Numbered from the stretch's first letter, positions 29,855-54,055 are shown. The stretch is DNA of 64,000 bases from an uncultured delta proteobacterium (GCA_963815115.1 CAWFFN010000009.1:288001-352000), one strand, 5' to 3'. Numbers and translations: made by a program. Notes: generated from the sequence alone by a model not told the origin.

Positions 29855-30227
29855 CGCACGAGCGAGATCGCTCTGGCGCTCGTGGATCGGCGAAGGCATC
29901 GAGGTGGTCGCGCCGGGCCTGTTCGTCTTCGAGTGCGCGGCGGCCCTCCGTCGGATGCTCGTTCGACACGATCTCCGAGAGGGCCAGGCCCGAACTGCGC
30001 TCGACCTGCTCCTCGGCATGCCCGTGGCACTTCGAGCGCCGGAAGGACTGGTCGAGCGCGCCTGGGACCTCGCGAAGGACCTTGCCCGCCCGACCGCGTA
30101 CGATTGCTTCTACCTCGCAGTGGCCGAGCTCCTCGAGATCGAGTGCTGGACGGCCGATCGTCGCCTCTTCAATGCTGTTCAGCCGAAGAAGCCTTGGCTG
30201 CGCCATCTCGACGAGCACGGAGCATAG
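29787..30227 (+). CDS. vapC: VapC PIN-domain toxin
   Basis: CVDASLALK, FE, AYDCFYLAVAE, WTADRRL. Confidence 0.88.
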   Translation: MRGGMVCVDASLALKLLVVEGDSARARSLWRSWIGEGIEVVAPGLFVFECAAALRRMLVRHDLREGQARTALDLLLGMPVALRAPEGLVERAWDLAKDLARPTAYDCFYLAVAELLEIECWTADRRLFNAVQPKKPWLRHLDEHGA

Positions 30228-30309
30228 GAACTTCGAACGGGGTATCGTGAAGGTTGACCGAACGCCCCATCCCGGACCTTCGCCGCATTTTCGCCCGCTC
30301 CGTAACAAG
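30220..30309 (-). repeat. Junction element copy 1 (oriIS-like end + 50-bp core)
   Basis: 30260-30309 identical to 54006-54055; minus strand GTTCGAAGTTCCTATGC at 30222-30238. Confidence 0.85.
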
Positions 30310-30551
30310 GCCTCCCGACCCGCCGCATGCTCGACAGTTGCTCGTCAGACAGCTCGGTGGCGGAGGCCCCGCTCCGTCGGCCGCTTGCAAATGCAAGTCG
30401 GGGTCGTGGGGCCTTGAGCTCACCCGCCATCATCGCGGGCAGGGGCGCGGCTTCTCACCGCCATCTCTGTTCACGTTGACATCGCGACCTGGGCCGTGCT
30501 CTAGTTGTACTCCAAGATATCCTAGGTAGGTGTCGAGCCAGGGGGAAAACT

Positions 30552-32513
30552 ATGACCTCATGCGGAAAGTCGATCGTGGGCTCGCAGCGAACGGTGTTCA
30601 TCGCCCTTTCTGCTATCGGTTGGGGCCTGGCATGCTTGGGGGGTTCAGCTGTCGGTGCAGCTACCTTCACCTTCACCAAGATCGCGGACACCTCGACTCG
30701 TGCCCCGGGGTTCGACCCGCCTCTAAACCTCTACGGATTCTCGGAACCCGCTCTGGACGGCGACAACGTGGTTTTCGGGGCGATTCCGAATAGAGGAGGG
30801 TGGTACGGCATCTTCTTGCACGATGGAGCTGACCTGCGTGCTGTCGCCAAGGGGGGAGATTCCGGTCTCCCTGGAGCGGGCGAGATATTGGCATTCTTGC
30901 GTCCCTCGATCTCTGGGGATGCCGTGGCGGTCTCCTATGAGAGGTCCGCCAATGGTGGTGGCGTGCTGCGGTGTGAGAATGGCACTTGCGAAGTGATCGT
31001 CTCGTCGGAGACGCCCGCTGTTGGGTTCTTCATCTACCCGCCGAGTCTGAGCGGCCACAAGGTCGCGTTCTACTCCCAACCAGCCGGCGTGCCGGGCCCC
31101 AGTACCCGGCTGCTCGTCGCCGGGCCGGGCGGGGTTGTCAAGGTCGCCGATCAGGACACGGATCTCCCCGGGGTCATCGGCAAGTTCAGGGGTTACTTCG
31201 ACGGGGTCGATAGCTGGCCAATGCTGGTCGGGGATGACGTTTGCTTCACCTCCGCGACGTCCTTGGACTACATGGGCGTCTTCCTGTTCCAAGGCGGCGT
31301 GTTTCGCACGATCGTGGACAATCGCCCCCCCGCCCTACTACCCGACGGCTACACCTTGAACTTTGTGGAGAACATCGCGTTCGACGGCACAGCCGTGCTG
31401 ATCAACACCAGTCTCAGCGGCATCTACATTGATCGCGGCAGCGGCCTGGTGACCGAGCAGTCGGTGGCCGAGCCAGTCTCCGGTGTCCCGAGTTCGCAAT
31501 GGTTCGCCTTCAGTGGTGCCGCATTCTCGGGTGGGCACGTTGCCTTCGTAGGGGTGTTCTACGATACGAACACTGGACAGTTTCACACGGGCCTCTTCTC
31601 GAACATCGATGGCAGCTATCGTCCCCTGCTCTTGGATGGCGACACGCTCGACGGCAAGACACTGCTGTCCACTAGCGAGCTTCATCCAGTAACTTTCGGG
31701 ATCGGGCGACAGGGGGTGCGAGGCAACGACATCGCGTTCGTTGCGTACTTCGATGATGGCTCCGGGGGTTACACTGAAGGTGTCTATGTTGCGCACGCAT
31801 TGACGACAACAACGACCACGACGACAACCAGCACATCGACCTCGACGACGTCTTCTACCTCCAGTACAACGTCGACCACGACGACGACGGTCCCTGAGAG
31901 AGCCCCCCAGGCCAAGTGTCTGGTTGGCAAGAACAAGTGCATGGCGACGAAGGCTAACGCCCTCCTCAAGTGCGAGCAGAAGGCCGAGTCACCTGGAAGG
32001 CCAGCGGATCCGAACAGTGATGGGTGCGTCGACGGGGCGAAGGCAAAGTTCGCGGGCGACGGCGATCCGTCGAAGGGTTGTTTCAGGAAGCTCGAAGCCA
32101 AGAAGAACAACGACTGCATCACGTTCGGTGACACCGCGCCCGCCGAGCTGCTCGTTGATGATTGTATTGGTGCGCTGGTCGCCGCCATCGATCCGCCTCC
32201 GCTCGAACAGACGAAGTGTGGCGTCGGCAAGAAGCAGTGCGTCGCTGTGAAGCTGAAGAGCCTTCTCAGCTGCTACCAGAAGGCACAGACACCGGGGAAG
32301 GTGGTTGAGCCGGAGCTGAGCCAATGCCTCGCGAAGGCGATGGCCAAGTTCGATGGTGGCCCCGATCCTGCGCGGGGCTGCTTTGCCAAGCTCGAAGCCA
32401 AGCGCCGGAAGGACTGTCGGCCTCCTCTCGGGAACACGATGGCTGTCGAGACCATTGTCGACTCGTGCGCGAGCACGTTCATGGCGCTGCTTCAGGACAC
32501 GATGGTGCCCTGA
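30552..32513 (+). CDS. Secreted protein: beta-propeller-like repeats, Thr/Ser linker, duplicated Cys-rich C-terminal domain
   Basis: Signal peptide, FTKIADT, repeated PS(I/L)SGxxVAF units, poly-Thr, two KC..GK..C..K...LL.C.QKA...GCF.KLEAK units; lower GC than core. Confidence 0.8.
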   Translation: MTSCGKSIVGSQRTVFIALSAIGWGLACLGGSAVGAATFTFTKIADTSTRAPGFDPPLNLYGFSEPALDGDNVVFGAIPNRGGWYGIFLHDGADLRAVAKGGDSGLPGAGEILAFLRPSISGDAVAVSYERSANGGGVLRCENGTCEVIVSSETPAVGFFIYPPSLSGHKVAFYSQPAGVPGPSTRLLVAGPGGVVKVADQDTDLPGVIGKFRGYFDGVDSWPMLVGDDVCFTSATSLDYMGVFLFQGGVFRTIVDNRPPALLPDGYTLNFVENIAFDGTAVLINTSLSGIYIDRGSGLVTEQSVAEPVSGVPSSQWFAFSGAAFSGGHVAFVGVFYDTNTGQFHTGLFSNIDGSYRPLLLDGDTLDGKTLLSTSELHPVTFGIGRQGVRGNDIAFVAYFDDGSGGYTEGVYVAHALTTTTTTTTTSTSTSTTSSTSSTTSTTTTTVPERAPQAKCLVGKNKCMATKANALLKCEQKAESPGRPADPNSDGCVDGAKAKFAGDGDPSKGCFRKLEAKKNNDCITFGDTAPAELLVDDCIGALVAAIDPPPLEQTKCGVGKKQCVAVKLKSLLSCYQKAQTPGKVVEPELSQCLAKAMAKFDGGPDPARGCFAKLEAKRRKDCRPPLGNTMAVETIVDSCASTFMALLQDTMVP

Positions 32514-32842
32514 CATGGGTCACGCTGCCCAGCGAGAAATCGCCGTTGGGGACCAGGTTCGCGGCCTGAGCGACCCCGGCCAGAGAGTGCCCACCGTGGT
32601 GAACATCTTCCGACTGAATCCACGGCGGACGATACGACCGAGCCGCGAGAAGCTCAGCAGAGGGTATCGATCCCATTGTTCATCTGGAACCTCCTTGCTT
32701 CACCGCTGTGCCCAAAGATGAGCTGACCAATGCCAGCTGTAGATAGGGGAGGGGCACTCATGGCGCGTGCCGTGCCGGCACCTCCACGCCCCCGTTCATA
32801 GCATTGAACGGGGAGACCGGGGTGGTACGGCACGAGCTCTCT

Positions 32843-32966
32843 CTACCAAGTAACTCGCACCGCCGATGACCTCAGGCGGCGGGGCGGAGGGTGACCTCGT
32901 AGCCCAGATGGTGCAGGCGGCGCGTGAGCCCGGCGACGAGGCGGGCGTGGTCGCCGCGTTGGAAGG
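32843..32966 (-). mobile_element. IS110 3' remnant with right end
   Basis: [30 protein letters not shown]-stop and GCGAGTTACTTGGTAG, nearly the same as the end of the element at 54089-55534. Confidence 0.85.
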
Positions 32967-34800
32967 TGGTCCGGGCATCCCAGGCGGTGTCCGGCGAGAT
33001 CATCCTCGAGAAGCTCGTCGACACGCTCATGATGGTCGCGCTCGAGCACGCGGGAGCAGAGCGCGGCCTCCTGATCCTCCCGCGGAACGACGAGGAGTGG
33101 ATCGAGGCCGAAGCCACGACGTCCGGGGGCACGGTCGCCGTCCGGCTGCGCGAGGCCCGGGTGACCCCGGCCGACCTCCCCGAGTCGGTCCTGCGCTACG
33201 TCATCCGGACGAAGGAGTGCGTGATCCTGGACGACGCCACGACCGAGGAGCTTTTCGCGTCCGATCCGTACATCCGTCGCAGCCAGGCTCGTTCGGTCCT
33301 TTGCCTGCCCCTGCTGAAGCACGCGGAGCTGGCCGCCGTCCTCTATCTCGAGAACAACCTTGCGCCCCACGTGTTCACGGCGGCGCGGACCGAGCTGCTC
33401 AAGCGGGTCGCCGCGCAGGCGGCGATCTCGCTGGAGAACCCCACCTCTATGCAGAGCTTCGCCACGCGGAACGGACGGTTCGCCGGCACGAGCAGGATCT
33501 GCGCCTGACGATCGACGCGATTCCCGAGATCGTCTGGACCGCGCGGCCCGACGGTGTCGTCGACTCGCTCAATCGGCGCTTCCTCGATTTCGTCGGATTC
33601 TCTTCGCCGGAGGAAGCGGGCGAATTGCGCTGGGACGCCGTGGTGCATCCCGAGGACTACGCGACGGCCCTGCAACGGTGGTGGGCGTGCGTTCGCTCCG
33701 GTGAGCCCTACCAGGCCGAGCTCCGAGCTCGCCGGCACGACGGGGAGTATCGCTGGACCATGATCCGTGCCCTGCCGCTGCGCGACGAGGCGGGAACCAT
33801 CGTCCGCTGGTACGGCACCGGCGTCGACGTCCAGGACCGGAAGCAAGCGGAGGAGACGATCCGGGAGCAGGAAGGCGAGCTGCGGCTGCTCGTCGATCTC
33901 GTCCCGCACCATATCCTGGTGGCGGACGCGGAGTGGCGGCTTCTCCGCGCAAACCGGTCGGGTCTGGACTACTTGGGCCTCACGTTCGAGGAGCTCTCTC
34001 GAAACGAGAGCTTCGCCTACTATCACCCCGACGATCTCGACAGCCTGCGGACGGCGATCGAGTCGATCTCGCAGGGCATCCCGAAGGACTTCGAGGCGCG
34101 CGCGCGCCGGCGCGACGGCCAGTTTCGATGGCACCTGTTCCGTTTCGTCCCCCTGCGCGACGAGCACGGACGCGTGCTTCGATGGTACGTGACGGGCACC
34201 GACATCGAGGATCGGAAGCGCGCCGAGGAGCGCGTGCACGAGGAGAACCTCGCGCTCCGCGAGGAAATCGACAACGCCTCGATGTTCGAGGAGATCGTCG
34301 GGACCTCCCCGCGCCTTCGAGCCGTCCTCTCCAGCGTGTCGAGGGTGGCGCCGACGGATTCGACCGTGCTCATCACCGGTGAGACCGGAACGGGCAAGGA
34401 GCTCGTCGCCCGAGCCATCCACAAGCGATCGCGGCGATCGGCGCGAGCGTTCGTGAGCGTCAACTGTGCCGCGATCCCCCCCTCGTTGATCGCCTCGGAG
34501 CTGTTCGGTCACGAGAAGGGGGCGTTCACCGGGGCGCTGCAACGCCGCCTCGGCCGCTTCGAGCTCGCGGACGGCGGGACGATCTTCCTCGACGAGATCG
34601 GCGATCTCCCCGCCGACACCCAGCTCGCCCTCTTGCGGGTTCTCCAGGAACGCCAGTTCGAGCGTGTGGGGGGGACGCGATCGATCAGGGCGGACGTGCG
34701 CGTGATTGCCGCCACGAATCGGGACCTCGAAGCAGCCATGGCCGGGGGCGAGTTCCGGAGCGACCTCTTCTATCGGCTGAACGTGTTCCCGATCGAGGTG
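32967..34800 (+). pseudogene. Truncated GAF-PAS-PAS-sigma54 activator
   Basis: [16 protein letters not shown] start, frameshift near 33440, two PAS domains, [33 protein letters not shown] then cut off; no HTH. Confidence 0.85.
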
Positions 34801-34887
34801 GCTGATAGGCACGACGAAGGGCCTTTTGCCGCGGAGGCTTACAGAACGCCCCATCCCGGACCTTCGCCGCATTTTCGCACGCTCCGT
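34801..34887 (-). repeat. Junction element copy 2
   Basis: 86/87 identical to 53963-54049; begins exactly where the sigma54 gene breaks. Confidence 0.9.
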
Positions 34888-35628
34888 CAACACAGACCCC
34901 ACCTGTAGCTTGCTAGACCCAGCTCTGGCGAGGGCTTACGCGCGGCCGACCGGCTGCGGTAGGCCCTCGTCGGCTGGGGTTCCATGTACGCACCATGTAC
35001 GCAGGCATCCGCGGCGTCAGGGGCTCCGCCACGAGCGAGGCGACGTCGATACCCGCTTGATGACCCGCGCGGAGAACCTGGCCTCGACGGATCTTTCGGG
35101 CTGGCTGGACTCCGTGCAGACGTGGCGGCTCACGCACTCATAGGATGCCGCATCCTGTGCGCCTGCCGCGCTGGCCGCCCTGAAGTATGTCGGGCGCTCG
35201 CCACCCGTGACGGTACTGTCCCTGACCTTCCAGGCGTTCGGGCGCCTGCAGGCGTCGCGTCCCTCGGTCCGTTGGCGGTCGTCGCGTCCGGCCTCCTCGT
35301 CCTCGGGCTGCTTCGCTACCGGTGACGATCGACGATACGCGGCGGCGCGTGGCTGGATCGCAGGGACGATCGCAGCGATCAGTCTGGGAAGGGCGCATGA
35401 AGGGGGTATTCGCCCTTCGTCCCTACCAGCCATCTCCCCGGCGCGTCTACCAGCCCGCCGCCCTTCCGTAACGGAGGTACAGGGTCTCGTCCTCAAGGAC
35501 ACAAGTCGAGGATCAGAACCTCGGCCTCGACGGGGGCTCGTACGCGGGGCTCGTGTGACGGGCAGGTATGTGATTCCTTGGCTGCCTGCAGGAACCGCAG
35601 AACGCGCGCGTGAATGGTATCTCCCCGC

Positions 35629-36792
35629 TCACGGTCGAGCGGGCGGAACGCGCCCGTCCCGGAGCCAAGTGGTCACCACCCGGCACGCGAGGTCGAGGTT
35701 GCCCATCTGGCAATGACTGTCGGCGTGCTCGGCAGCGGTGAACATCCGCACCTGCACCGAGCGTGCCGAGGTGAGGGCTGCGGCCTGGCGCCGAGTCAGG
35801 ACCGGCGGCTGGAACGCGTCGTGCTCACCGCAACACAGCAGCACGTCCTGCGTGACGCGGGCGCTGCCGATGTGCTCGGCGTTCATTCCCAGGAACCAGT
35901 CGGCCACATCCATCGGCTCGTGGCCGTCGACGAGGTAGAGCGTCTGGTTCACGACGTACCGGAGCACCGGGAAGAGGCGCGCCCGCACCCGGATGCTCCA
36001 GTTCATGACTCCCCGGAGCCGGAGCATCCGCCGGGCGACGGCGCGCACCGGCCCCGGCAGCTGGTACAACCAGTCGTACACCGGGGGCCAGCTCACGACC
36101 CGGTCGATGCGCGGTTCGCGACCCGCGGCGCGCAGTGCCCAGTATCCGCCCATCGAGATTCCGACGATCGCAGCGCGGTCGACTGAGAAGTGGTCAAGGA
36201 CCGCGGCCACGGGCTTCTCCCAGTCGTGATCGAAGGTCAGCCGACCGAGGGCGCGCGCGCCGCCCTGCCCGGGGCCTTCGTAGGCGATCACGTCGAAGCC
36301 GCTCGCGGCGATGCGCTCCCAGATCGCGTAGAATTCCTCGATCAACGAGTCGAAGCCGCCGTGAAGCAACACGGTGCCGCACGACGCCGACCCGACGACG
36401 CGAAGTCGATAGGCGGGAAGCGTCGCGCCGCCGTAGGGGATCTCGTGGCGGACCGCGCCCCCGTCGCGGAACGCGCGGTCGAACAGGTCGCGGTAGCGCC
36501 GGTAGATCGGGACTCCGGCGCCGAACCTCTTCGGAGTGAAGAACTCGGCGACGCGCAGATAGCTCGTCGCGTTGCGGAGCCGGCCCTCGGCCTCGACGCG
36601 CTCGGCCAAAGCGGTGAACACCTCGGCGCAGTCGTCGAGCGAGCTGATCGCTCGCGCAGCAGTTCTCAGCTCCTGGCCATCGGCGAAACCGAGGGCGTGC
36701 GCACGGTTGAGCTGGTAGTTGAGAAAAGGAATGCGGTGGAAGGCCTCGAACCCGACTGGCAGCTCCGCCATCTTTACGTCGAGATCGCCCAT
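35629..36792 (-). CDS. Alpha/beta hydrolase (S9/FrsA-like)
   Basis: HGGFDSLIEE, EGPGQG, GISMGG, HCQMGN. Confidence 0.85.
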   Translation of the reverse strand: MGDLDVKMAELPVGFEAFHRIPFLNYQLNRAHALGFADGQELRTAARAISSLDDCAEVFTALAERVEAEGRLRNATSYLRVAEFFTPKRFGAGVPIYRRYRDLFDRAFRDGGAVRHEIPYGGATLPAYRLRVVGSASCGTVLLHGGFDSLIEEFYAIWERIAASGFDVIAYEGPGQGGARALGRLTFDHDWEKPVAAVLDHFSVDRAAIVGISMGGYWALRAAGREPRIDRVVSWPPVYDWLYQLPGPVRAVARRMLRLRGVMNWSIRVRARLFPVLRYVVNQTLYLVDGHEPMDVADWFLGMNAEHIGSARVTQDVLLCCGEHDAFQPPVLTRRQAAALTSARSVQVRMFTAAEHADSHCQMGNLDLACRVVTTWLRDGRVPPARP

Positions 36793-36930
36793 CGATCGCA
36801 GCCTATCTGGTCAGTCCCGCAAATCGAACCGGCACCGCCACCGGCACGAGCCGCCGCGCGCCGCCGCCGGCACCCGCAAGGTGCGCTCACGACTGCGTGC
36901 GATCTGCGGAAGAGAGAGGCCCCCCTCGGC

Positions 36931-37617
36931 TCAGCCGATCCACGCGAGCGCCTGTTCCAGCACCCGGAAGCCGTCGGCAGGTACGCACGCGCCGTGAGCG
37001 ATCATCACCCGCTCGGGGTTCCAGCCGAGCACCTCGGCCTTCGCTCGACGCGCCGCCCGACGGTCGACGAACGTCAGGCGCAGTTCGCGCGGCGTGCTGC
37101 CGCCCGGACCGACAAGGCCGTCGAGCCGCATGATCCAGCCCCGCCACCCGCGGGCCACGGACGGGTCGAACCGCTGGACCAGATCCGCGAAGATGGCCGT
37201 CCGCGAGGCGCGATGAAAGAACACGACCTCCTCCAGCGCGAAGCTGCCGTGGAAGATCACCTGATCGATGTCGCGTGCCCAGGCAGGGTCGGGCGCATCC
37301 CCGAGCTCGTCGTCGAAGCGCAGCTCCCGCCGCCGGCGCGCGAGGCCGGGCGAGGCGTGCAGTCGTGCCGCGGGCCAGCGCGCCTTCCAGGCGCCGAGGA
37401 AGAGGTGGTGAAGCTTGTTGGGCGAGACAACGTCGCCGACGGGTCCGAGCCGGTCGATCTCCTGCGCGAGCGCGTCATCGAGTGCGATCGGCGACCAGGC
37501 CCACAGCGTGCCGTTGCGGAGCCGAACGAGTACCATCCGCGTCGGATATGGGAACCCGAGGAAGGAGACGGTCGGACCATCGGCGATCCAGATGTCCCGA
37601 TCGACCGTCGTGAGCAT
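36931..37617 (-). CDS. DUF4336-like metallo-hydrolase-fold protein
   Basis: TRMVLVRL, WSP, SPNKLHHLFL, EVVFFHRASRT, MIAHG. Confidence 0.85.
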   Translation of the reverse strand: MLTTVDRDIWIADGPTVSFLGFPYPTRMVLVRLRNGTLWAWSPIALDDALAQEIDRLGPVGDVVSPNKLHHLFLGAWKARWPAARLHASPGLARRRRELRFDDELGDAPDPAWARDIDQVIFHGSFALEEVVFFHRASRTAIFADLVQRFDPSVARGWRGWIMRLDGLVGPGGSTPRELRLTFVDRRAARRAKAEVLGWNPERVMIAHGACVPADGFRVLEQALAWIG

Positions 37618-37654
37618 GGCGGGATGGTCAGTGGCTATCAATGACGGTCGGCGA

Positions 37655-38062
37655 GTGAAAGCGACCGCCGCATTCCTTGCGTTGACGCTCGTCGCGCTCG
37701 GCTCCTGTGGATCCCGACCCGACCCCTCGACGCCGGGCGGCGCCGCCGCCCGCTTCCTCGATGCCTACTTCGGCCTCGACCTCGACGCGGCGCTGGCGGC
37801 GAGCGTTCACCGTGCACGCGAGCGGGTCGAGGCGGAGCGACGGCTCACGGCCGGGCAGCGGGTCGACGCGGAGACACGGGTGCCGATCATCCGCTATCGC
37901 CTTCTGCGCGAGGAGCCGGGGGAGGGTACCATGGTTCATCTCGTCTACGAGGTTCGCGCCACCGTGCCGGACGCCGGGACGAGCGAGCAGCGATGGCTCG
38001 TCACCGTCGATCGGATCGGAGAGAGGTGGATCGTCGCGGACTTCGATCGCCTTCCCGGCTGA
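37655..38062 (+). CDS. Hypothetical lipoprotein (NTF2-like)
   Basis: LVALGSC lipobox; PGGAAARFLDAYF...WIVADF. Confidence 0.6.
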   Translation: MKATAAFLALTLVALGSCGSRPDPSTPGGAAARFLDAYFGLDLDAALAASVHRARERVEAERRLTAGQRVDAETRVPIIRYRLLREEPGEGTMVHLVYEVRATVPDAGTSEQRWLVTVDRIGERWIVADFDRLPG

Positions 38063-48569: not shown

Positions 48570-48601
48570 TTGACCCTGGACCTAGGTACAGGGTGTAGAA
48601 G
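48570..48601 (+). promoter_or_regulatory. MerR-type promoter/operator
   Basis: TTGACC, long (19-20 nt) spacer containing the dyad ACCCTGGACC-TA-GGTACAGGGT, then TAGAAG. Confidence 0.8.
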
Positions 48602-49024
48602 ATGGCCACTCCGATGGAGGCACTCACCCGAGGCGAGGTGGCGCAGCAGGGCCGCGTGAACTCCGAAACGATCCGCTACTACGAGCGGCGCGGTCTGCTC
48701 CTGAAACCACCTCGCACGCCCTCCGGGTATCGCGCCTTTTCCTCGGACGCCGTGCGTCGGGTCCGCTTCATCAAGCGGGCGCAGGGGCTTGGCTTCTCGC
48801 TCAAGGAGATCAAGGCGCTGCTCACCTTGCGCATCGATCCACGCCGCTCCTGCGGCGACGTGCGGACGCGGGCCGAGGCGAAGATCGAGGAGATCGAGGC
48901 CAAGGTTCGCGTGCTACGGGGAATGAAGAATGCGCTCGTGCGGCTGACAGCCGCCTGCGCGGGGCGCGGGCGCGTTAGCCAGTGCCCGATCTTGGAGAGC
49001 CTCGATACCGAGGGAAAGTCATGA
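48602..49024 (+). CDS. MerR-family heavy-metal regulator
   Basis: ETIRYYERRGLL, SGYR, FIKRAQGLGFSLKEI, Cys at SCGDV and C-x7-CPIL. Confidence 0.93.
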   Translation: MATPMEALTRGEVAQQGRVNSETIRYYERRGLLLKPPRTPSGYRAFSSDAVRRVRFIKRAQGLGFSLKEIKALLTLRIDPRRSCGDVRTRAEAKIEEIEAKVRVLRGMKNALVRLTAACAGRGRVSQCPILESLDTEGKS

Positions 49025-49389
49025 CCTTCACGGTCGAACTCGTCTACGACAAGGACTGCCCGCACGTCGCCGCGACGCGGGCGAACCTGCTCCGGGCTTT
49101 TGAGGAGGCGGGGCTGCCTGCCAACTGGACGGAGTGGGAGCACTCGTCCTCAGCCACGCCGGCACGCCTCCGAGGGTTCGGCTCACCAACGGTGCTGGTC
49201 GAGGGACACGACGTGGCCGGAGCCCAGCCGGTCGAGGGGCTCGCGTGCTGCCGGCTGTACGAGACAGAAGATGGCCGAAGCGGTGTACCGCCGGTCGGGC
49301 TGCTCGCAGGCGCGCTCTCGCACGCGAAGGAGCGGACCATCTCGAACCTCGGTGTTGCCTCGGATGGCGGCGGGCCAGCTTCGCCCTGA
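49021..49389 (+). CDS. Thioredoxin-like protein of mer-type clusters
   Basis: VELVYDKDCPH, FGSPTVLVEG, ACCRLY. Confidence 0.7.
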   Translation: MTFTVELVYDKDCPHVAATRANLLRAFEEAGLPANWTEWEHSSSATPARLRGFGSPTVLVEGHDVAGAQPVEGLACCRLYETEDGRSGVPPVGLLAGALSHAKERTISNLGVASDGGGPASP

Positions 49390-49404
49390 CGGTGGACGGT
49401 GCTC

Positions 49405-49619
49405 ATGCCCCACGGCTGCACGGAGAAGGACTTCACGCGACGCAGCATCTCCTGGCTCCTGTGGGGAGTCCCGGCGGCAGTCGTGATTCTTGGGAGCCTG
49501 GTGGCGCCCGTGCCGCGAATGTTGTTGTGGACCCCTGCGTTCCTCATCGGTGGGGTCGGCTGCGTCATGAACGCTGCACGCTGCGGGCGCGTTCACTGCT
49601 ACATCACAGGGCCGCTCTA
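49405..49619 (+). pseudogene. Cys-containing membrane protein interrupted by IS3
   Basis: Two TM segments then CVMNAARCGRVHCYITGPLY, cut by the IS terminal repeat. Confidence 0.65.
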
Positions 49620-50219
49620 TGAACCGGCCCGGCTTCGCCGGAGGCTCGATTAGTTGAGTGCGGCCTCCGTGGCGGGAGTTGCGTGACGTTCGTAGTAGGC
49701 GCGCTCGTACTCGATCGGCGGCACGTGGCCAAGGGGCGCGAGGAGCCGCCGGGTGTTGAACCAGTCGACCCACGAGAGCGTCGCGAATTCGACGGCCTCG
49801 ACGTGGCGCCACGGACCTTGGCGTCGGATCACCTCCGTCTTATAGAGGCCGATCACAGATTCGGCGAGGGCGTTGTCATAGGAGTCACCGACCGTGCCGA
49901 CGGACGGCGCGATGCCCGCCGTCGCCAGGCGTTCGGTGTACCGCAGCGCGAGATATTGCTTGGGTTCAACCGGTCGTCAGCCCCGGGCGCCGGCCGCGAT
50001 CACGCTCCGCTTGGCGCACCCACTTCCGCAGCGCCTCGGCCGAGCACCCGATCTTCCCGGCGATCGACTGGATCGTCGCCCACTGCGAGTCGTGCGCTTC
50101 CTCGTTCGCCAGCACCAGCCCCACCGCACGCTCTCGCACCTCCGCTGAGAACCTGCTCGCTCGTCCCATGGCTCCATCCTCTCAAGGTTGGGAGCCTCCG
50201 GGAAACTCGGGCCGGTTCA
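49620..50219 (-). mobile_element. Internally deleted IS3-family element with both inverted repeats
   Basis: TGAACCGGCCCGGCTTCGCCGGAGGCT / AGCCTCCGGGAAACTCGGGCCGGTTCA; orfA start (FSAEVRERAV...) fused to orfB end (SYDNALAESVIGLYKTE...WVDWFNTRR). Confidence 0.9.
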
Positions 50220-50349
50220 CTCTGCACAGGTGGCCGTGCAGAGGCTGATGATTGGCTGAGTCATGAATCTGAGCGTGCCGGGAGGAGGATCGGTCTCGCC
50301 GTCGCGGCCCGCGAGCGGCGCGGCACCGTGGCAGATCGGGCGGCGGCAC

Positions 50350-50570
50350 TCACAGGACGCACCTCACCTGCGGCGGGAGCAGCTGGCGGCGCACCAGGTA
50401 GAGGTTCGCCAGCGCGAAGAGGCTGAAGGCCCGCGCGAGGTTCTTGGCGAGGCCGCGATACCGGACCTTGGCAAATCCCCACAGGCGCTTCACCACGTGG
50501 AACGGATGCTCGCCGCGGGCCCGGGTCCGCGACCGGGCCCGATTAATCGCCCGCCACCGCGGGGTGAGCG
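50350..50570 (-). mobile_element. IS5-family transposase 3' remnant
   Basis: EHPFHVVKRLWGFAKVRYRGLAKN...LFALANLY. Confidence 0.8.
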
Positions 50571-50591
50571 GCCGGTGCGGACCGGCGGCCT

Positions 50592-50624
50592 AGAGGTCGG
50601 AGGTTCGGCTCCCCTCCGCTCCAC
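50592..50624 (+). other. Degenerate tRNA 3'-half (possible att scar)
   Basis: AGAGGTCGGAGGTTCGGCTCCCCTCCGCTCCAC resembles the variable loop/T arm/acceptor of tRNA-Ala; no 5' half. Confidence 0.4.
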
Positions 50625-50839
50625 TCCAGATTCCGCACGCTGAGCGTGCTCCCAGCTCAGCCGCGACCGTGGAGGTTGCGGCGGGGGCGTGACCGATGCG
50701 TGTGCTCGACCGACGAATGCTTGGCACACGCTCCGTGCGTACCCTCCCTCGGCGCAGCAACGAGGAGCCGACGAGCCTCCTCGGAGGGCTCGGCGAGATC
50801 GCCGCCTCGCGACGCATGGACGTCCGCCGATGCCCGCTC

Positions 50840-51280
50840 TCAAGACAGCCGAGTCGTCGGCAGTCCGGCGCGTCGGGCGGCCTGGCTCTGACGGCGATCT
50901 GCCGTGACGAAGCGCTGGCTGCCAGAGAGCACGGCAGCCGCCACGTGAAGAAGGTCCAGGGACCGGCACCCCAGACGCGCCGTGTGCTGGTTCGCCAGTT
51001 CGATGGCCTTGGCCATCGTGAGCGGCCAATCGATCGCTGCGCGGTGGAGCGTGCCCTCGTGGAGGTCCTCCTGGAGCCGCGCAACGGTGGCGTCGACCAG
51101 CTTGCGCACTCCCTCACGCCGGAAGAGGCGGAGGCGAAGCGCATTGACGACCTCCAGCTCGTGGAGCTGGGAGAAGAGGACGGGCTCCCCCCATCGTCGA
51201 ACCAGACGGGCGACGCGTTCGGATCGTGGCTCGGGTACGTAGAGCGAGACGAGGACGCTCGTGTCCAGCCAGAGGCTCAC
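50840..51280 (-). CDS. vapC: VapC PIN-domain toxin
   Basis: LDTSVLV, ELE, RSLDLLHVAAA, FVTADRRQ. Confidence 0.88.
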   Translation of the reverse strand: MSLWLDTSVLVSLYVPEPRSERVARLVRRWGEPVLFSQLHELEVVNALRLRLFRREGVRKLVDATVARLQEDLHEGTLHRAAIDWPLTMAKAIELANQHTARLGCRSLDLLHVAAAVLSGSQRFVTADRRQSQAARRAGLPTTRLS

Positions 51281-51522
51281 AGCCGCTCGGCCCGATTCTC
51301 GATCACGATCTCGCTCGTCGCCTGTCCTTCGGGGCCCCTCCCCCAGATGGCACGGGCGCGCGCGACGAAATCGGGCAGCCCGCCCTCCGGGCGGCGCGTT
51401 GCCGGAACGAGCCGCGCCACGGTCCGGTTGCGGCGGGTGATCTCGACGACCTCGCCGCGGGCGACCGCGCGCAGGATTCTTGGCAGGTTGTGCTGGGCCT
51501 CACGAACCGTTGCTGTTCGCAT
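51277..51522 (-). CDS. Phd/YefM antitoxin
   Basis: MRTATVREAQHNL...GEVVEITRRNRTVARLVP. Confidence 0.85.
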   Translation of the reverse strand: MRTATVREAQHNLPRILRAVARGEVVEITRRNRTVARLVPATRRPEGGLPDFVARARAIWGRGPEGQATSEIVIENRAERL

Positions 51523-51541
51523 GTGCGTCAGTATGACGCAC
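51523..51541 (-). promoter_or_regulatory. Candidate TA operator palindrome
   Basis: GTGCGTCA-GTA-TGACGCAC perfect inverted repeat abutting the antitoxin ATG. Confidence 0.65.
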
Positions 51542-51644
51542 GTCATCGGTTCCTCGCAACCGGCGTCCCGTCATGCGACTGCGGGTCGCCCATGCGGTGC
51601 TCGACTTGAGCGGCTCGGACACGGGCGGGACCGTACTGCCGGCG

Positions 51645-52012
51645 GGAATCCAACGCGTGCTCGTCCTGCACCATGGTGTGCTGGCATCGCACAGTCGCTG
51701 GCGCGCCCGGGGGGTCGCCTACGGGCGGCACCCTCGCCCCATCGGTGCGACGCTGCGGTTCGTGTGGGGGTCGCCCGCTTCGCCCGTTCCGTCGAGCGCG
51801 CCGCCGTCCAGCGGCGGGCTGGAGGCGGGCGGCGAGTCCCACCTCGATCCCGTCGGGACGCTCGGCGGACACCAGAGCGAACCGCTGTCGTCTCCGCCGG
51901 TGACGAGTCGGGACCCGGCCACCACCGCCAGCGTGGAGGCGCCCCCACCTCCGGCGGCGCGCAAGTGGTCCTGGCAGGAGCTGATGCGGCACACGTTCGG
52001 GGTGGACGCACT
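51645..52012 (+). mobile_element. IS91-family (Y2) transposase C-terminal remnant
   Basis: LVLHHGVLASHSRWRAR...WSWQELMRHTFGVDAL; continues as GIDVLACAHCG at 53931-53962. Confidence 0.75.
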
Positions 52013-53930
52013 GTAGACGCAACCCGGCAAACGCCTCTGCGCTTCGTCCTGCAACGCCGCGTCTTCCAGGTCGCGCGGCGACCGAATCGCCGGCGCGGGG
52101 CGCCGCGCTTGGCATCCCCTGCTGAAGCTGGTGACGCCCCCTCCGTGGGGAGGGGTGGTGGTGATGCGGCGGGAACGGACGTGGAGGATTGAATGGCGGG
52201 GGCGACCACAAGCGGATGGGTTCGAGCGGCTGGGCCAAGCCATGCGGCTGCTCATCGATCGGGCACAGGGCCAGCCGCCGGAACAGATCGGAAGCGGGGG
52301 AATGGAGCAGGCTGCGCCTGATCGGGCGGAGGGGGAGCGAAGATGACGCAACGGGGAGCACTCTACGCCCGGGTATCCACGGCGCGGCAGGAACAGGAGC
52401 AGACCGTGGCCTCCCAGGTGGCCGCGCTCGAGCAGGCGGCGGATGCCCTGGGCGTCACGGTGGCGGCCGAGCACCGCTACATCGATGATGGCGTCAGCGG
52501 CTCGCGGCTCGACCGGCCTGGGCTCGATGCGTTGCGCGACGCCGCCGCGGATGGGCTGCTCGATGTCGTGCTCATCTACTGCCCGGATCGCCTGGCACGC
52601 AGCTACGTGCACCAGCACGTGCTGATCGAGGAATTGACCAAGCACGGGGTGCACGTCCACTTCGTCGAGCGCCCGGTCGGTGACCGCGCCGAGGACCGCC
52701 TCCTCGTTCAGATGCAGGGGGTGATCGCGGAGTATGAGCGGGCCAAGATCGTCGAGCGCACCCGGCGGGGCAAGTTGCACAAGCTCCGCGCCGGGCACCT
52801 GCTCCCGTATAGCAGCGCGGCACCCTATGGGTACGCGATCGTGCGGGTCGGGGACGGACGGCGGCGGCTGGTGGTCGATGAGGTCGAGGCGGCGCAGGTG
52901 CGCGCGATGTACCGCTGGGTGCTCGACGACGGGCTCAGCGCCCGCGCCGTCGCCAAGCGGCTCAATGCCGAGAGGGTCCCGCCGCGGCGGGCGGCGCTGT
53001 GGACGCAAGGGACGATCTTCCGCATCCTGACGAACCCGGCGTACATCGGCCGCGCGACCTACAACCGCCGCGTCGCGATTGAACCCGCGCGGCCTCGCCA
53101 TCCGGGGAGGTATCGCAAGCAGCTCAAGAGCTCGTTGCGCTGGCGCCCGCAGGCGGAGTGGCTGTGGGTGCCGATTCCAGCCATCATTGACGAGGAGGTG
53201 CAGGGGGCGGTGCGGCAGGCGTTGGCCAAGCACAAGGTCTGGTCACCGCGAAACGTGCAGCACGAGTACCTCCTGCGCGGGCTGGTGGTCTGCGGTGCGT
53301 GCGGGTTGCGGATGGACTGTGCGCACCAGGCGCGGCCGGCCCAGCCGTACGAGTACTTCTACTACGCCTGCCGCCATCACGATCCGGTCGAGAGCGGGCG
53401 GGTGCAGCGGTGCACCGGGCGGCGGGTGCGCCGCGACGACCTGGATGCCGTCGTCTGGGACGCGTTGGGCTCCTGGATCCAGAGTCCGCGGCTCCTGGTC
53501 GAGGAGATCGCCGCCTGGCGCACGAGTCGGGACGGCGCCGGTGAGGTGGTGCGGGATCTTGCCCGCCTCGAGCGGGTCCAGCGCCAGACCGGGCTGCAGA
53601 TCGAGCGCTTGATCGACGCGTATCAGCGCGGCGCACTCAGCGTCGAGGAGCTCCAGGCGCGCCGCGAGCGGCTCGACGCCACGAGTGCGGCGGCGCGGGC
53701 CCGCGCAGAGGAACTGGCGGCGCAGGAGATGGATCGCGCGCGGCGCGATCGACTGGGCGAGGATCTCGCCGCCTTCGCCGCCACCCTGCGCTCGGGCCTC
53801 GCCCACCTCGACTTCGCCGGTCGCCAGCGGCTCGTAAGGCTTCTCGTGGAACGCGTCGTCATCACCGGCGACCACGTGGCGATCGAACATGTCATCCCAC
53901 TATCCGGTCGTTTTGCCGGTTTGCGACTAC
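52013..53930 (+). mobile_element. Large serine recombinase mini-element
   Basis: Terminal inverted repeats GTAGACGCAACCCGGCAAA / TTTGCCGGTTTGCGACTAC (17/19) enclosing a small ORF and an LSR. Confidence 0.8.
52164..52346 (+). CDS. 60-aa accessory protein coupled to the LSR
   Basis: MRRERTWRIEWRGRPQADGFERLGQAMRLLI...; ATGA overlap with the recombinase. Confidence 0.6.
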   Translation: MRRERTWRIEWRGRPQADGFERLGQAMRLLIDRAQGQPPEQIGSGGMEQAAPDRAEGERR

Positions 53931-53932
53931 GG
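52343..53932 (+). CDS. Large serine recombinase (no stop codon inside the element)
   Basis: YARVST (catalytic Ser), DDGVSGS, DRLAR, PYGY, LTNPAYIG, CGACG...YYAC...C zinc ribbon, coiled coil. Confidence 0.92.
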
Positions 53933-53962
53933 GATCGACGTGTTGGCGTGTGCCCACTGTGG

Positions 53963-54055
53963 GCTGATAGGCACGACGAAGGGCCTTTTGCCGCGGAGGC
54001 TTACAGAACGCCCCATCCCGGACCTTCGCCGCATTTTCGCCCGCTCCGTAACAAG
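53963..54055 (-). repeat. Junction element copy 3
   Basis: Matches 34801-34887 and 30260-30309; begins where the IS91 remnant breaks. Confidence 0.9.

What the first reader, a model, noticed from the sequence alone, without database searches (positions are those of the whole stretch)
30220..54055. Three copies of a ~90-bp oriIS-like element, each joining unrelated DNA: candidate non-autonomous rolling-circle gene-capture unit
Seen: 34801-34887 and 53963-54049 are 86/87 identical, and 30260-30309 equals 54006-54055. All three share orientation and have ATAGG near the left end (minus strand GTTCGAAGTTCCTAT or CTTCGTCGTGCCTAT). Copy 2 cuts a sigma54 activator at FPIEV, copy 3 cuts an IS91 transposase remnant at CAHCG, and copy 1 supplies the vapC stop codon. 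The two flanks never rejoin into one gene, and there are no terminal inverted repeats or target duplications. Known: IS91/ISCR elements end in a TTCCTAT-type oriIS, make no duplication and mobilise neighbouring DNA by one-ended rolling-circle transposition. Inference: a transposase-free mini-element, mobilised in trans, that carries different cargo and assembles this island.
Basis: partly seen in the sequence, partly recalled or inferred. Interest (0 to 1): 0.8.

Follow-up and report, generated by a model that had tools for sequence, protein, structure and literature searches.

The report
Solo ISCR-type rolling-circle transposon ends
The three ~90-bp repeats are stand-alone "origin" ends of an ISCR/IS91-type rolling-circle transposon, one of which has been hit by an RNA-guided IS110 insertion sequence; this is a known kind of mobile-DNA remnant, seen here in unusually tidy arrays.

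Summary
Three same-strand copies of a 90-93-nt repeat lie at 30220-30309, 34801-34893 and 53963-54055. They belong to 18 close copies in two clusters of this genome.

The repeat is the right (oriIS-side) end of an ISCR-like IS91-family element. In this genome and in relatives from other genera it sits, reverse-complemented, 150-400 nt downstream of Y2-transposase genes, at the element boundary. Its outer about 27 nt share the terminal motif seen at the expected oriIS position in ISCR1 and ISVsa3 (ISCR2, by recall) plasmid records.

The inner end is CAAG in 11 of 18 copies. That matches the IS801 "miniature right-end fragments" made by one-ended rolling-circle transposition.

Copy 3 is followed by a 1479-bp IS110-family element (54056-55534). 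Its left end holds guide-like patches matching the repeat's inner end and its own right end.

Capture of neighbouring DNA has partial support. Two segments in the sister array on contig C5 are copies of other loci and sit flush against repeat ends. Nothing comparable was shown inside the window.

No intact Y2 transposase gene was found, so the copies are probably fossils. I rate it a new member of a known kind, of moderate interest.

The parts
30220..30309 (+). Copy 1. A 90-nt oriIS-type mini ('type III'; its left half diverges). It ends ...CCGTAACAAG, and its CATAGG supplies the vapC stop codon.
   Evidence: A 90%-identical copy exists in a congener (G003:C8:234204-234283).
34801..34893 (+). 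Copy 2. An oriIS-type mini ('type I', with A at position 79). Its inner end is altered to ...CCGTCAACAC. It abuts the truncated sigma54 activator.
   Evidence: A 134-nt metagenome contig in run X3 covers 34801-34923 with no mismatches and 2 gaps.
53963..54055 (+). Copy 3. An oriIS-type mini ('type I', with C at position 79). It ends ...CCGTAACAAG and abuts the ISCR-like transposase remnant ...CAHCG.
54056..55534 (+). 'ISa', a 1479-bp IS110-family insertion sequence. It starts TTCCCACC and ends TTACTTGGTAG. It sits exactly at the inner end of copy 3, and AG is the shared core.
   Evidence: The 1572-bp unit (mini + ISa) occurs 4 times at 99.4-100% identity. A 93%-identical left-end fragment on contig C8 is joined at the same point to an R2-type repeat.
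54279..55505 (+). ISa transposase gene (408 aa).
   Evidence: Pfam DEDD_Tnp_IS110 plus Transposase_20. NCBIfam NF033542 'IS110 family RNA-guided transposase', 257.8 bits against a cut-off of 140.
54153..54230 (+). Candidate bridge-RNA guide patches in the ISa left end. TAACAAGTT (54153-54161) equals the left junction (target left arm + core + first 2 nt of the IS). CTTGGTAG (54223-54230) equals the right end + core.
   Evidence: In 5000 shuffles of the left end, the 9-mer appeared in 10, the 8-mer in 30, and both together in 0. Guide logic is as described in PMC11208160 (passages).
51660..52008 (+). ISCR/IS91-like transposase remnant, 3' part. It ends ...WSWQELMRHTFGVD.
   Evidence: 86% nucleotide identity to the contig C5 copy. 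tblastn and translation.
53925..53962 (+). Second piece of the same transposase remnant (YGIDVLACAHCG), cut by copy 3.
   Evidence: Eight relatives read ...DVLACPRCGGRM... at this place.
52343..53900 (+). Large serine recombinase gene, lying between the two transposase-remnant pieces.
   Evidence: Pfam Resolvase + Recombinase + Zn_ribbon_recom. NCBIfam hits are all below cut-off.
32866..34800 (+). Sigma54-dependent activator (PAS domains + AAA+), truncated at the left edge of copy 2.
   Evidence: The last 94 nt are 99% identical to C7:687570-687663, where the gene goes on.
29787..30227 (+). PIN-domain (VapC-like) gene, with a Phd/YefM antitoxin gene upstream (29477-29854). Its stop codon lies inside copy 1.
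35384..35478 (+). R2-type repeat, an older diverged relative of the minis. It ends ...TTCCGTAAC.
   Evidence: (I2).
58776..58872 (-). A second R2-type repeat.
   Evidence: (I2).
32843..32965 (-). Solo right-end fragment of an ISa-like IS110 element.
   Evidence: 84% match to 55412-55534 (I1). tblastn to ISa residues 379-408.

Best explanation
[quoted passage not shown] It exists as a miniature unit with no transposase gene.

How it most likely arose (inferred). Rolling-circle transposition starts at the outer edge, G-C-N-GATAGG. This is the strand opposite to the transposase sense strand. It normally runs through the transposase gene to the far end. Here it stopped about 90 nt in, at a target-like tetranucleotide: CAAG, which is CTTG on the other strand. 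That gives a unit that a transposase supplied in trans could move again. When termination is missed, the unit can take the DNA on its inner side with it. New units tend to land against the nick site of a resident unit, which builds head-to-tail arrays.

What is shown:
- homology of the repeat to transposon right ends;
- the shared inner boundary;
- the arrays;
- two flush captured segments in the sister array on contig C5.

What is inferred: the termination mechanism, mobilisation in trans, and accretion at nick sites.

In today's assembly the copies are probably fossils, because no intact Y2 transposase gene was found.

Separately, a 1479-bp IS110-family element (ISa) has inserted exactly at the inner end of copy 3. 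It was most likely guided there by a bridge RNA encoded in its left end. That explains the DNA to the right of copy 3.
For: (1) A Y2 transposase is present. The genome has an IS91-family gene at C5:~1419231-1420912 with Pfam Zn_Tnp_IS91 + Y2_Tnp. Its best NCBIfam match is 'ISCR element clade Ia' (283 bits, below that model's cut-off). A relative's intact ORF is 37-39% identical over >=96% of its length to plasmid genes annotated as ISCR1 and ISVsa3 transposases. A repeat copy lies about 150 nt downstream of the gene's stop, reverse-complemented, with the ...CCTATCGGC end outermost.

(2) The same layout recurs elsewhere.
- Of 16 transposase-oriented loci from 25 genomes of the family, a repeat-like sequence lies downstream on the opposite strand in 4 at E<1e-3 (L028 from this genome, L040, L034, L036). 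Three more are weaker: L052 at 0.075, L051 at 0.26, L037 at 1.9.
- Of 29 loci from named MAGs, 7 have hits at E<=0.05, and all 9 hits are on the opposite strand. Some of these loci are the same genomes as in the first set.
- Two copies in one genome (L037, L051) stop being alike within about 15 nt of the repeat's outer end.
- In G012 the sequence is single-copy and sits next to the transposase gene.

(3) Records annotated ISCR1 and ISVsa3 end about 225 nt after the transposase stop with AAAAGGnnGTTTATnnTTCCTATAC. The outer ends of the repeats carry the same motif. ISCR1's oriIS region is given as 232 bp (PMC6218425, passages).

(4) Inner boundary, over the 18 copies: AACAAG in 11, AACAAC in 2, AACAGG in 2, AACAGA in 1, other in 2. 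CTTG/CAAG is a canonical IS91/IS801 target and termination tetranucleotide. In IS801, right-end fragments of 229, 360 and 679 nt ending in such a tetranucleotide were caught transposing. The last 82 bp of IS91 suffice for oriIS function (PMC3189936 and PMC13181058, passages).

(5) Solo copies exist in three other species of the genus. Eight hits fall in 7 loci. Four hits, in four of those loci, end ...CTCCGTAACA+2 nt. None of the 7 loci has a transposase hit within the fetched stretch of about 3 kb.

(6) Arrays. 8 of 9 copies on C9 and 7 of 9 on C5 share an orientation. The binomial p is 0.0075 for 15 of 18, but the direction was chosen after looking.

(7) Flush cargo.
- C5:1400815-1402430 is a 94% copy of C7:228686-230300, bounded exactly by two repeats.
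- C5:1376418-1377484 is a 96% copy of C12:573442-574507. It starts at a repeat's inner end and stops against a CCGATAG motif.
- These are 2 of 17 right flanks and 2 of 17 left flanks examined.

(8) ISa. Domains and NCBIfam are above cut-off. There are four copies at 99.4-100% identity with identical ends and unrelated flanks. A related left-end fragment is joined at the same point to an R2 repeat. The guide-like patches appear together in 0 of 5000 shuffles.
Against: - No intact Y2 transposase. The one near-full-length gene aligns in four pieces that switch reading frame at least three times, and the four other hits are fragments. Mobilisation in trans is therefore unshown. The frame changes could also be assembly errors.
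- The DNA just outside the outer end shows no canonical target tetranucleotide. Among 17 left flanks there are 0 CAAG or GAAC and 1 CGAG. The only pattern is a purine at -1 in 16 of 17.
- The predicted single-strand hairpins are no more stable than shuffles. Z-scores were +0.2 to +2.0 for seven of eight folds and -1.4 for one R2 copy. A consensus fold of 11 sequences gave no pairs.
- No empty site was found. The four congeners are too diverged or not syntenic at the loci tried. For copy 2 and for copy 3 plus ISa the two flanks do not rejoin. A simple insertion is therefore not shown for any window copy.
- The IS110 insertion point coincides with the repeat's inner boundary, so an IS110-driven origin of that boundary cannot be excluded.
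- The authors of the IS801 study concluded that most IS801 fragments in genomes come from rearrangement, not from one-ended transposition.
- The repeat-like end was not detected in 9 of 16 and 22 of 29 transposase loci. Those are either too diverged or truncated.
Confidence: 0.6

Rival explanations
1. The solo copies are rearrangement debris, not products of rolling-circle termination. Under this reading, full-length ISCR-like elements were hit by IS110-family elements at the AACA-AG site 92 nt from their right end. Recombination between the identical IS110 copies, or imprecise deletions, then swapped what lay beyond. Precise IS110 excision left the 90-mer next to unrelated DNA.
For: - ISa sits exactly at the inner boundary in 4 of 18 copies, and an ISa-like fragment sits at the same point of an R2 repeat.
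- To the right of copy D (C9:428602), 256 nt beyond ISa, lies a Y2 transposase fragment in the native orientation. This suggests insertion into a once-longer element.
- IS110 loci are reported to expand, rearrange and recombine at half-matches (10.64898/2026.08.14.744561, Results parts 1-2).
- The IS801 authors favoured reorganisation for most fragments found in genomes.
Against: - It needs one full-length insertion plus several further steps for each of 18 copies, and for the R2 copies as well.
- The seven type II copies show no ISa-like element at their inner end.
- It does not explain captured segments that stop flush against the OUTER edge of the next repeat.
- It does not explain the shared orientation within each array.
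- The CAAG inner end matches what rolling-circle termination predicts.
Confidence: 0.22
2. The 90-mer is a host repeat (REP-like, or a small structured RNA gene) that several unrelated insertion sequences merely use as a landing site. On this reading ISCR-like, ISa and ISc elements all target it, and it is not itself part of any transposon.
For: - Three different elements abut it: the ISCR-like gene on one side, ISa at its inner end, and the IS1111-like ISc 9 nt from its outer end.
- IS110-family elements are known to target REP sequences (10.1101/2025.01.17.633520, Introduction and Discussion).
- The R2 relatives are dispersed over 7 contigs, and R2-like matches occur in all four congeners searched.
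Against: - The sequence diverges in step with the transposase across genera and stays at the same place and strand relative to it.
- It is single-copy, and adjacent to the transposase, in G012.
- Its outer motif is shared with plasmid records annotated ISCR1 and ISVsa3, from unrelated bacteria.
- It cuts genes rather than lying in intergenic spacers.
- No Rfam family matches it, and the folds are not better than shuffles.
Confidence: 0.08
3. The 90-mer is the true left end of the IS110 element, so that the mobile unit is the 1572 bp from 53963 to 55534, or it is a miniature IS110 derivative. The solo copies would then be left-end relics.
For: - Four copies at 99.4-100% identity share the whole 1572 bp.
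- These four, plus the copy just downstream of copy C, carry C at repeat position 79. The four other type I solos carry A.
- ISPpu9 shows modular IS110 units with separately mobile small modules.
Against: - The guide-like 9-mer matches the junction in which the IS starts at TT(CCCACC), not at CTGATAGG. No match to the reverse complement of the 53963 start was found in the left end.
- The C8 fragment joins the same IS left end to a different repeat.
- The related ISb shows the same logic with a different, short target.
- The dinucleotide before 53963-type starts varies (AG or GG), whereas AG is constant at 54054-54055 and 55533-55534.
- The 90-mer is homologous to ISCR-type ends in genomes where no IS110 element adjoins it.
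Confidence: 0.04
4. The junctions are assembly chimeras, collapsed or mis-joined at a repeat.
For: - The source is a 12-contig assembly.
- Copy C of ISa differs from the others by several 1-nt deletions, at least two of them shortening a CC doublet.
- The Y2 gene shows several frame changes, which may point to indel errors.
- Short metagenome contigs break at 34894-34895.
Against: - The repeats are only about 90 nt, and the contigs are 0.85-1.9 Mb.
- 18 copies have unique flanks on both sides.
- A 134-nt contig in run X3 spans the right junction of copy 2 with no mismatches. A 709-nt contig in X1 reproduces the ISa-right-end/repeat junction. These runs may be the source sample, so they are not independent.
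- Homologous solo copies occur in three other genomes.
Confidence: 0.03

Closest known systems
IS801 miniature right-end fragments (229, 360, 679 nt) from one-ended transposition in Pseudomonas syringae pv. phaseolicola (PMC3189936; passages read)
   Same: - They are continuous pieces of the right (origin) end of an IS91-family element.
- The other side is bounded by a target-like tetranucleotide. CAAG is on their list.
- They carry no transposase and are moved in trans.
- The same element also carried neighbouring DNA of variable length.
   Different: - The units here are only 90-93 nt, close to the 82-bp minimum reported for IS91.
- They are amplified to 18 copies, plus an older family.
- They are arranged head-to-tail in two arrays.
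- They derive from an ISCR-like rather than an IS801-like transposase.
- Mobility here is inferred, not observed.
ISCR1 and ISVsa3 (ISCR2, by recall) and their oriIS ends (PMC6218425, passages; plasmid records L108 and L109)
   Same: - The transposase of a relative is 37-39% identical over >=96% of its length.
- The best NCBIfam model is an ISCR clade.
- The terminal motif AAAAGGnnGTTyATnnnnCCTAT is shared, and it sits a comparable distance after the stop codon.
- Variable DNA abuts the oriIS side.
   Different: - The host is a high-GC environmental lineage. Related loci come from MAGs labelled Candidatus Binatia and 'delta proteobacterium'.
- No resistance genes are involved.
- In this case the origin end occurs alone and repeatedly.
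IS91 minimal ends and target rule (PMC13181058; passages read)
   Same: - No target duplication.
- The last ~82 bp of the right end are sufficient.
- The strand opposite to the transposase sense strand is the active circle.
- CTTG/GTTC tetranucleotides mark the cleavage sites.
   Different: - The flanks next to the outer end here show no CTTG/GTTC-type consensus (0 of 17).
- The two subterminal palindromes described for IS91 and IS801 could not be demonstrated.
IS110-family bridge-RNA elements that target repeats: IS621 and ISPpu9/ISPpu10 (PMC11208160, passages; 10.1101/2025.01.17.633520, two sections). IS4321/IS5075 and IS1111-attC, which target ends of other mobile elements, are recalled from memory and come from no call.
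   Same: - ISa has a DEDD transposase and no inverted repeats or duplications.
- It has an AG core, as in ISPpu9.
- It has a long non-coding left end with patches identical to the target left arm + core and to the donor left arm + core.
- It inserts at one precise position of a repeated sequence.
   Different: - The target is the inner end of a rolling-circle transposon's origin fragment, not a REP element.
- The right target arm is not conserved among the four copies. That fits the 'half-match' tolerance reported in 2026 preprints.
- The bridge RNA itself was not modelled or shown to be expressed.

Membership tests
IS91/ISCR family: origin-side (oriIS) right end | Lies downstream of a Y2 (HUH) transposase gene, at the element's right boundary, in a fixed orientation. 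| tested here: met
   - In this genome.
- 4 of 16 related loci at E<1e-3, plus 3 weaker.
- 7 of 29 MAG loci, with all 9 hits on the opposite strand.
- The boundary coincides in L037/L051.
IS91/ISCR family: origin-side (oriIS) right end | Terminal sequence motif shared with described members (...TTCCTATAC-type end). | tested here: met
   Records annotated ISCR1 (L108) and ISVsa3 (L109) end with AAAAGGnnGTTTATnnTTCCTATAC about 225 nt after the stop. The repeats and the relatives' ends carry the same motif. The nhmmer scores on these two records are not significant by themselves (E 0.58 and 0.94).
IS91/ISCR family: origin-side (oriIS) right end | No terminal inverted repeats and no target-site duplication. 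| tested here: met
   The aligned flanks of 18 copies show neither.
IS91/ISCR family: origin-side (oriIS) right end | Conserved target tetranucleotide (CTTG/GTTC type) immediately outside the origin end. | tested here: not met
   Among 17 left flanks there are 0 CAAG or GAAC and 1 CGAG. The only pattern is a purine at -1 in 16 of 17. The target rule of this ISCR-like clade is unknown.
IS91/ISCR family: origin-side (oriIS) right end | Subterminal imperfect palindromes in the origin region. | tested here: inconclusive
   A GCGRAGG / CCTTCGC pairing recurs in types I-III by inspection. However, the folds are not better than shuffles, and the consensus fold gave no pairs.
Miniature one-ended-transposition product (IS801 type) | Intact right end, with the other end at a target-like tetranucleotide. 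| tested here: met
   CAAG in 11 of 18 copies. In 5 others the last two letters differ (AACAAC, AACAGG, AACAGA). In 2 the end is altered. The definition is from PMC3189936.
Miniature one-ended-transposition product (IS801 type) | A functional transposase available in trans, and observed movement or circular intermediates. | tested here: not met
   No intact Y2 gene: 1 near-full-length copy split over at least three reading frames, plus 4 fragments. Movement and circles cannot be tested with these tools.
IS110 family (ISa, 54056-55534) | DEDD (RuvC-like) transposase with the IS110-type C-terminal domain. | tested here: met
   Pfam PF01548 + PF02371. NCBIfam NF033542 at 257.8 bits against a cut-off of 140.
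IS110 family (ISa, 54056-55534) | No inverted repeats or duplication, a shared core dinucleotide at both junctions, and site-specific insertion. | tested here: met
   AG is present at both junctions in all 4 copies, which share one insertion point in the repeat. A fifth, fragmentary case lies in an R2 repeat.
IS110 family (ISa, 54056-55534) | Non-coding end encoding a bridge RNA with guides for target and donor. | tested here: inconclusive
   Guide-like patches for the left target arm and left donor arm were found, together in 0 of 5000 shuffles. Right-arm guides were not identified. No Rfam match. Structure and expression were not tested.

The most novel reading that the evidence does not exclude
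The 90-nt origin units are, or recently were, an active non-autonomous rolling-circle system. Each unit can start replication, run into neighbouring DNA, and re-insert against the nick site of a resident unit. Head-to-tail arrays of unit + captured segment then grow much as an integron grows, but without an integrase. IS110-family elements have evolved bridge-RNA guides for the unit's two ends, using it as a safe harbour. The composite mini + IS110 unit may itself be moved by rolling circle from one origin to the next tandem origin.
Probability: 0.2. Interest if true: 0.7.

Novelty: new member of a known kind. Interest (0 to 1): 0.45.

Why it matters
ISCR elements are blamed for assembling resistance regions, yet a 2018 paper states that transposition of no ISCR element had been shown experimentally (PMC6218425).

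This environmental genome preserves a natural record of what such elements leave behind:
- minimal 90-nt origin units with a uniform, tetranucleotide-marked inner end;
- arrays of units in one orientation;
- at least two captured segments whose limits coincide with unit ends.

That gives concrete substrates for testing how rolling-circle capture starts and stops: a 90-nt unit, and an intact relative's transposase gene.

It also shows an RNA-guided IS110 element whose predicted guide matches another transposon's origin fragment. This is a tidy natural example of one mobile element homing into another.

None of this is a new principle, and no function for the host is implied.

Tried and rejected
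Readings I held and dropped.
- For a while I read the 90-mer as an internal-deletion derivative of an IS110-family element (ISc on contig C5), because ISc seemed to begin and end with the repeat's two ends. I dropped this after finding ISc's subterminal inverted repeats just inside those ends and the Y2 transposase link. ISc is inserted in a repeat.
One search reversed that.
- Integron attC sites, tRNA-type attachment repeats and Tn3-type inverted repeats were considered by eye and dropped: no matching motifs, no integrase context. No tool test was run for these.

Searches that gave nothing useful.
- Rfam found only a tRNA at gathering threshold and only chance-level hits over 53900-55600.
- Empty sites were sought in four congeners with the window's 28000-38000 and with two R2 loci. 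Synteny breaks at or near the repeats, so there is no verdict.
- The sigma54 3' part was sought near the window by motif: none in C9:300000-440000.
- The right flank of copy 3 + ISa was compared with the transposase 3' region: score 24, against a shuffle mean of 23.5.
- The consensus fold of 11 ends gave no pairs. One row (L037) was probably mis-placed.
- Public runs: no run held more than 0.25 of the sampled words of 33900-35400. Laid contigs did not bridge the left junction of copy 2.

- Supplementary files of papers were not opened. The supplementary tables of PMC13181058 and PMC3189936 on target tetranucleotides, and those of the ISPpu9 preprint on box sequences, may bear on the target-site comparison.
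- Structure prediction, complex prediction and the large protein searches were not used.

Papers known only from the search listing and abstract start: 10.64898/2026.08.31.748434, 10.1101/2025.10.25.684509, 10.64898/2026.03.19.712850.

Full report
1. THE OBSERVATION

The three repeats are real.
- Family D1 of the repeat finder gives 34800-34887 and 53962-54049 at 99% over 88 nt, and 30216-30303 at 68%.
- 30260-30309 is identical to 54006-54055.
- A 35-nt core occurs three times on the + strand, against none in 100 shuffles.
- Read from the sequence and from a profile search, the copies are 30220-30309, 34801-~34893 and 53963-54055.

- The PIN/VapC ORF ends in the TAG of copy 1.
- The sigma54 activator stops exactly at the end of its AAA+ Pfam domain, at copy 2.
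- The 12 codons left of copy 3 read YGIDVLACAHCG. Eight related Y2 transposases read ...DVLACPRCGGRM... at that place.

2. HOW MANY COPIES, AND WHERE

The window is G000:C9:288001-352000.

A profile of the repeat finds 24 places in the genome at E<=1e-3. Eighteen of these are close copies in two clusters, C9:318224-428693 (9 copies) and C5:1376333-1419079 (9 copies).
- There are three subtypes that differ mainly in the outer half.
- All start G-C-N-GATAGG (type III: GAGCATAGG).
- Most end ...CTCCGTAACAAG.
- Flanks are unrelated on both sides.
- Eight of 9 copies on C9 and 7 of 9 on C5 point the same way.

An older, more diverged family, R2, has the same start and end motifs. It has 19 BLAST hits on seven contigs. 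Two are in the window.

With the 91-nt query, the close family was found only in the same genus. Besides G000 itself, it was found in 3 of 4 congeners and in 0 of 36 other relatives searched.

3. COPY 3 CARRIES AN IS110 ELEMENT

The stretch 53963-55534 (1572 bp) occurs four times on C9 at 99.4-100% identity, with unrelated flanks.

Its ORF (54279-55505) is an IS110-family transposase. It has Pfam DEDD_Tnp_IS110 and Transposase_20. It scores 257.8 bits on NCBIfam NF033542, whose cut-off is 140.

Several results place the true left end of this element, 'ISa', at 54056, after the repeat.
- A 93%-identical left-end fragment on contig C8 is joined at the same nucleotide to an R2 repeat instead.
- AG stands at both junctions of all four copies, whereas the dinucleotide before 53964 varies.
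- A related element, ISb, has a short and different target at the equivalent point.
- The non-coding left end holds TAACAAGTT at 54153. That is identical to the left junction: the last bases of the repeat, then AG, then the first two bases of the IS.
- It also holds CTTGGTAG at 54223, identical to the IS right end with AG.
- In 5000 shuffles the first patch arose 10 times, the second 30 times, and both together never.

In the IS621 model, the left target guide and the left donor guide are RNA copies of exactly these top-strand sequences, core included (PMC11208160, passages). I therefore read ISa as having been guided to the inner end of the repeat.

I could not identify right-arm guides. The four right flanks are not alike. 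That fits the half-match tolerance reported in 2026 preprints (abstract only for 10.64898/2026.08.31.748434).

4. WHAT THE REPEAT IS

My first idea, a deletion derivative of an IS110 element, was wrong (see Tried and rejected).

The genome has an IS91-family Y2 transposase gene at C5:~1419231-1420912. About 150 nt after its stop, on the other strand, lies a repeat copy, with the ...CCTATCGGC end outermost.

The same layout recurs in relatives.
- Homologues of the gene occur in 20 of 25 genomes of the family.
- I oriented sixteen of the 30 loci fetched by the gene. In four of them the repeat profile hits downstream on the opposite strand at E<1e-3, and in three more weakly.
- Among 29 loci from named MAGs, seven have hits at E<=0.05, and all nine hits are on the opposite strand. 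Some overlap the first set.
- In G009 two copies of the element cease to be alike within about 15 nt of the outer end.
- In G012 the sequence is single-copy and sits beside the gene.

The transposase is ISCR-like.
- Its best NCBIfam model is 'ISCR element clade Ia' (below that model's high cut-off).
- A relative's ORF is 37-39% identical over >=96% of its length to plasmid genes annotated as ISCR1 and ISVsa3 transposases.
- In two such plasmid records, the sequence about 225 nt after the stop ends with AAAAGGnnGTTTATnnTTCCTATAC. That is where ISCR1's 232-bp oriIS region should end (PMC6218425). The outer ends of the repeats and of the relatives' elements carry the same motif.

5. WHY THE REPEAT STANDS ALONE

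In the full-length C5 copy, the repeat-homologous stretch runs on into the element's interior. The solo copies break off at AACAAG (11 of 18) or within two letters of it.

CAAG/CTTG is one of the tetranucleotides at which IS91-family transposases cut (PMC13181058). In IS801, right-end pieces of 229, 360 and 679 nt that begin with such a tetranucleotide made up 26% of trapped IS801 insertions. They were attributed to one-ended transposition (PMC3189936). The last 82 bp of IS91 suffice as origin.

The simplest reading is that these 90-nt units are the same kind of product, at nearly the minimal size. Solo copies in three other species of the genus fit this. Four of the eight hits end ...CTCCGTAACA+2 nt, and none of the 7 loci has a transposase hit within the fetched stretch of about 3 kb.

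6. CARGO

I compared 1.5 kb on each side of 17 elements with the whole genome. Two right flanks and two left flanks turned out to be copies of other loci whose homology begins or ends flush with a repeat.
- C5:1400815-1402430, the whole segment between two repeats, is a 94% copy of C7:228686-230300. C7 continues differently on both sides.
- C5:1376418-1377484 is a 96% copy of C12:573442-574507. It starts at a repeat's inner end and stops against a CCGATAG motif.
- The last 94 nt left of window copy 2 are 99% identical to C7:687570-687663. That case is odd and remains unexplained (see Noticed in passing).

Flush limits at the outer edge of the next repeat are what rolling-circle read-through followed by insertion at a resident nick site would give. 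IS110 activity at the inner end would not give them.

For the window's own three copies no donor locus was found. The DNA between copies 2 and 3 holds ordinary accessory genes: a hydrolase, a ClC channel, GlnK-AmtB, methyltransferases and a MerR regulator.

7. WHAT SPEAKS AGAINST THIS READING
- No intact Y2 gene is present. The C5 gene aligns to a relative's protein in four pieces that switch reading frame at least three times, and the other four hits are fragments.
- The flanks outside the outer end show no CTTG/GTTC-type consensus (0 of 17), only a purine at -1 in 16 of 17.
- Hairpins could not be supported.
- No empty site was found.
- For copy 2 and for copy 3 + ISa the flanks do not rejoin.
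- The IS110 insertion point equals the inner boundary. A route through IS110 insertion, recombination between IS copies and excision therefore remains possible. I give it 0.22.
- The four ISa-linked repeats, and the one just after copy C, share a base (C at position 79) that the other four type I solos lack. Either ISa needs that base, or the 1572-bp composite moved as one piece.

8. COMPARISON AND VERDICT

The thing works like, and by sequence belongs with, the origin ends of IS91/ISCR elements. As a stand-alone unit it matches the IS801 miniatures.

It fails one textbook feature, the target tetranucleotide outside the origin. Two more features could not be tested: hairpins, and movement.

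ISa is an ordinary IS110-family member with an unusual target.

I rate the finding a new member of a known kind, with interest 0.45. What is worth keeping is the neat natural record of ISCR-type origin units and their arrays, and the IS110 guide aimed at them.

Assembly artefact is unlikely but not excluded. The only read-level support is a 134-nt contig across the right junction of copy 2 and a 709-nt contig with the ISa-end/repeat junction. Both come from runs that may be the source sample.

Noticed in passing
window 34707-34800 and G000:C7:687570-687663: The 5' part of a sigma54-activator gene (window, cut by copy 2) and a 5'-truncated 3' part on contig C7 overlap by 94 nt at 99% identity. 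Upstream of the overlap the two loci are unrelated. One gene seems to have been split over two contigs with a 94-nt duplication. No mechanism was tested.
   Followed up: partly
window ~52009-53924: A segment carrying only a large serine recombinase gene (52343-~53900) lies inside the ISCR-like transposase remnant. It sits between ...HTFGVD (ends at 52008) and YGIDVLAC... (starts at 53925), with GVD/GID repeated at the two edges. It may be a small serine-recombinase mobile element.
   Followed up: partly
L023 ~846-2336 (G000:C5:~1374846-1376336): 'ISc' is an IS110-family element laid out like the IS1111 group: a short left end, a ~280-nt right end, and subterminal inverted repeats at L023 853-866 and 2321-2334. 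It is inserted inside a type II repeat, 9 nt from the repeat's outer end. Its transposase is split over two frames. A second IS110 lineage therefore targets the other end of the same repeat.
   Followed up: partly
G000:C9:366037-367690: ISa copy C is followed directly by another repeat copy, giving repeat-ISa-repeat. This implies two repeats once stood in tandem, sharing one G, or that the composite unit can be released between two origin nick sites. A 709-nt contig in run X1 shows the same ISa-end/repeat junction.
   Followed up: partly
window 35384-35478 (+) and 58776-58872 (-); 19 places genome-wide: The R2 repeats (~95 nt) start (G)ATAGG, contain a 9-bp perfect hairpin, and end TTCCGTAAC. 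One lies about 400 nt downstream of a Y2 transposase fragment, on the opposite strand (C5:1774852-1775073 and 1775465-1775551). They look like an older generation of the same origin units. R2-like matches occur in all four congeners.
   Followed up: partly
window 30552-32513: A 653-aa ORF between copies 1 and 2 has no Pfam or NCBIfam match. It has an internal direct repeat spaced 300 nt apart (32025-32102 and 32325-32402, 71% identical). GC content drops to 0.61-0.64 over 30-33 kb.
   Followed up: no
window 32843-32965 (-): A solo 123-nt right-end fragment of an ISa-like IS110 element overlaps the start of the sigma54-activator ORF. Similar solo right ends lie at C8:757103-757173 and C8:808611-808854.
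   Followed up: no
G000:C5:1402730-1404200, with copies on C8 and C7: Between two repeats of opposite orientation lies a further multi-copy element. It has 100% identical copies at C8:386824-388114 and C8:737190-738480, and copies at 93-97% on C7. It was not identified.
   Followed up: no
window 21898-21971: A tRNA gene lies about 8 kb left of the point where similarity to congeners ends. The last conserved ORF is 28945-29391, and the vapBC pair after it had no match in relatives. The mosaic region may therefore start near 29.4 kb.
   Followed up: no
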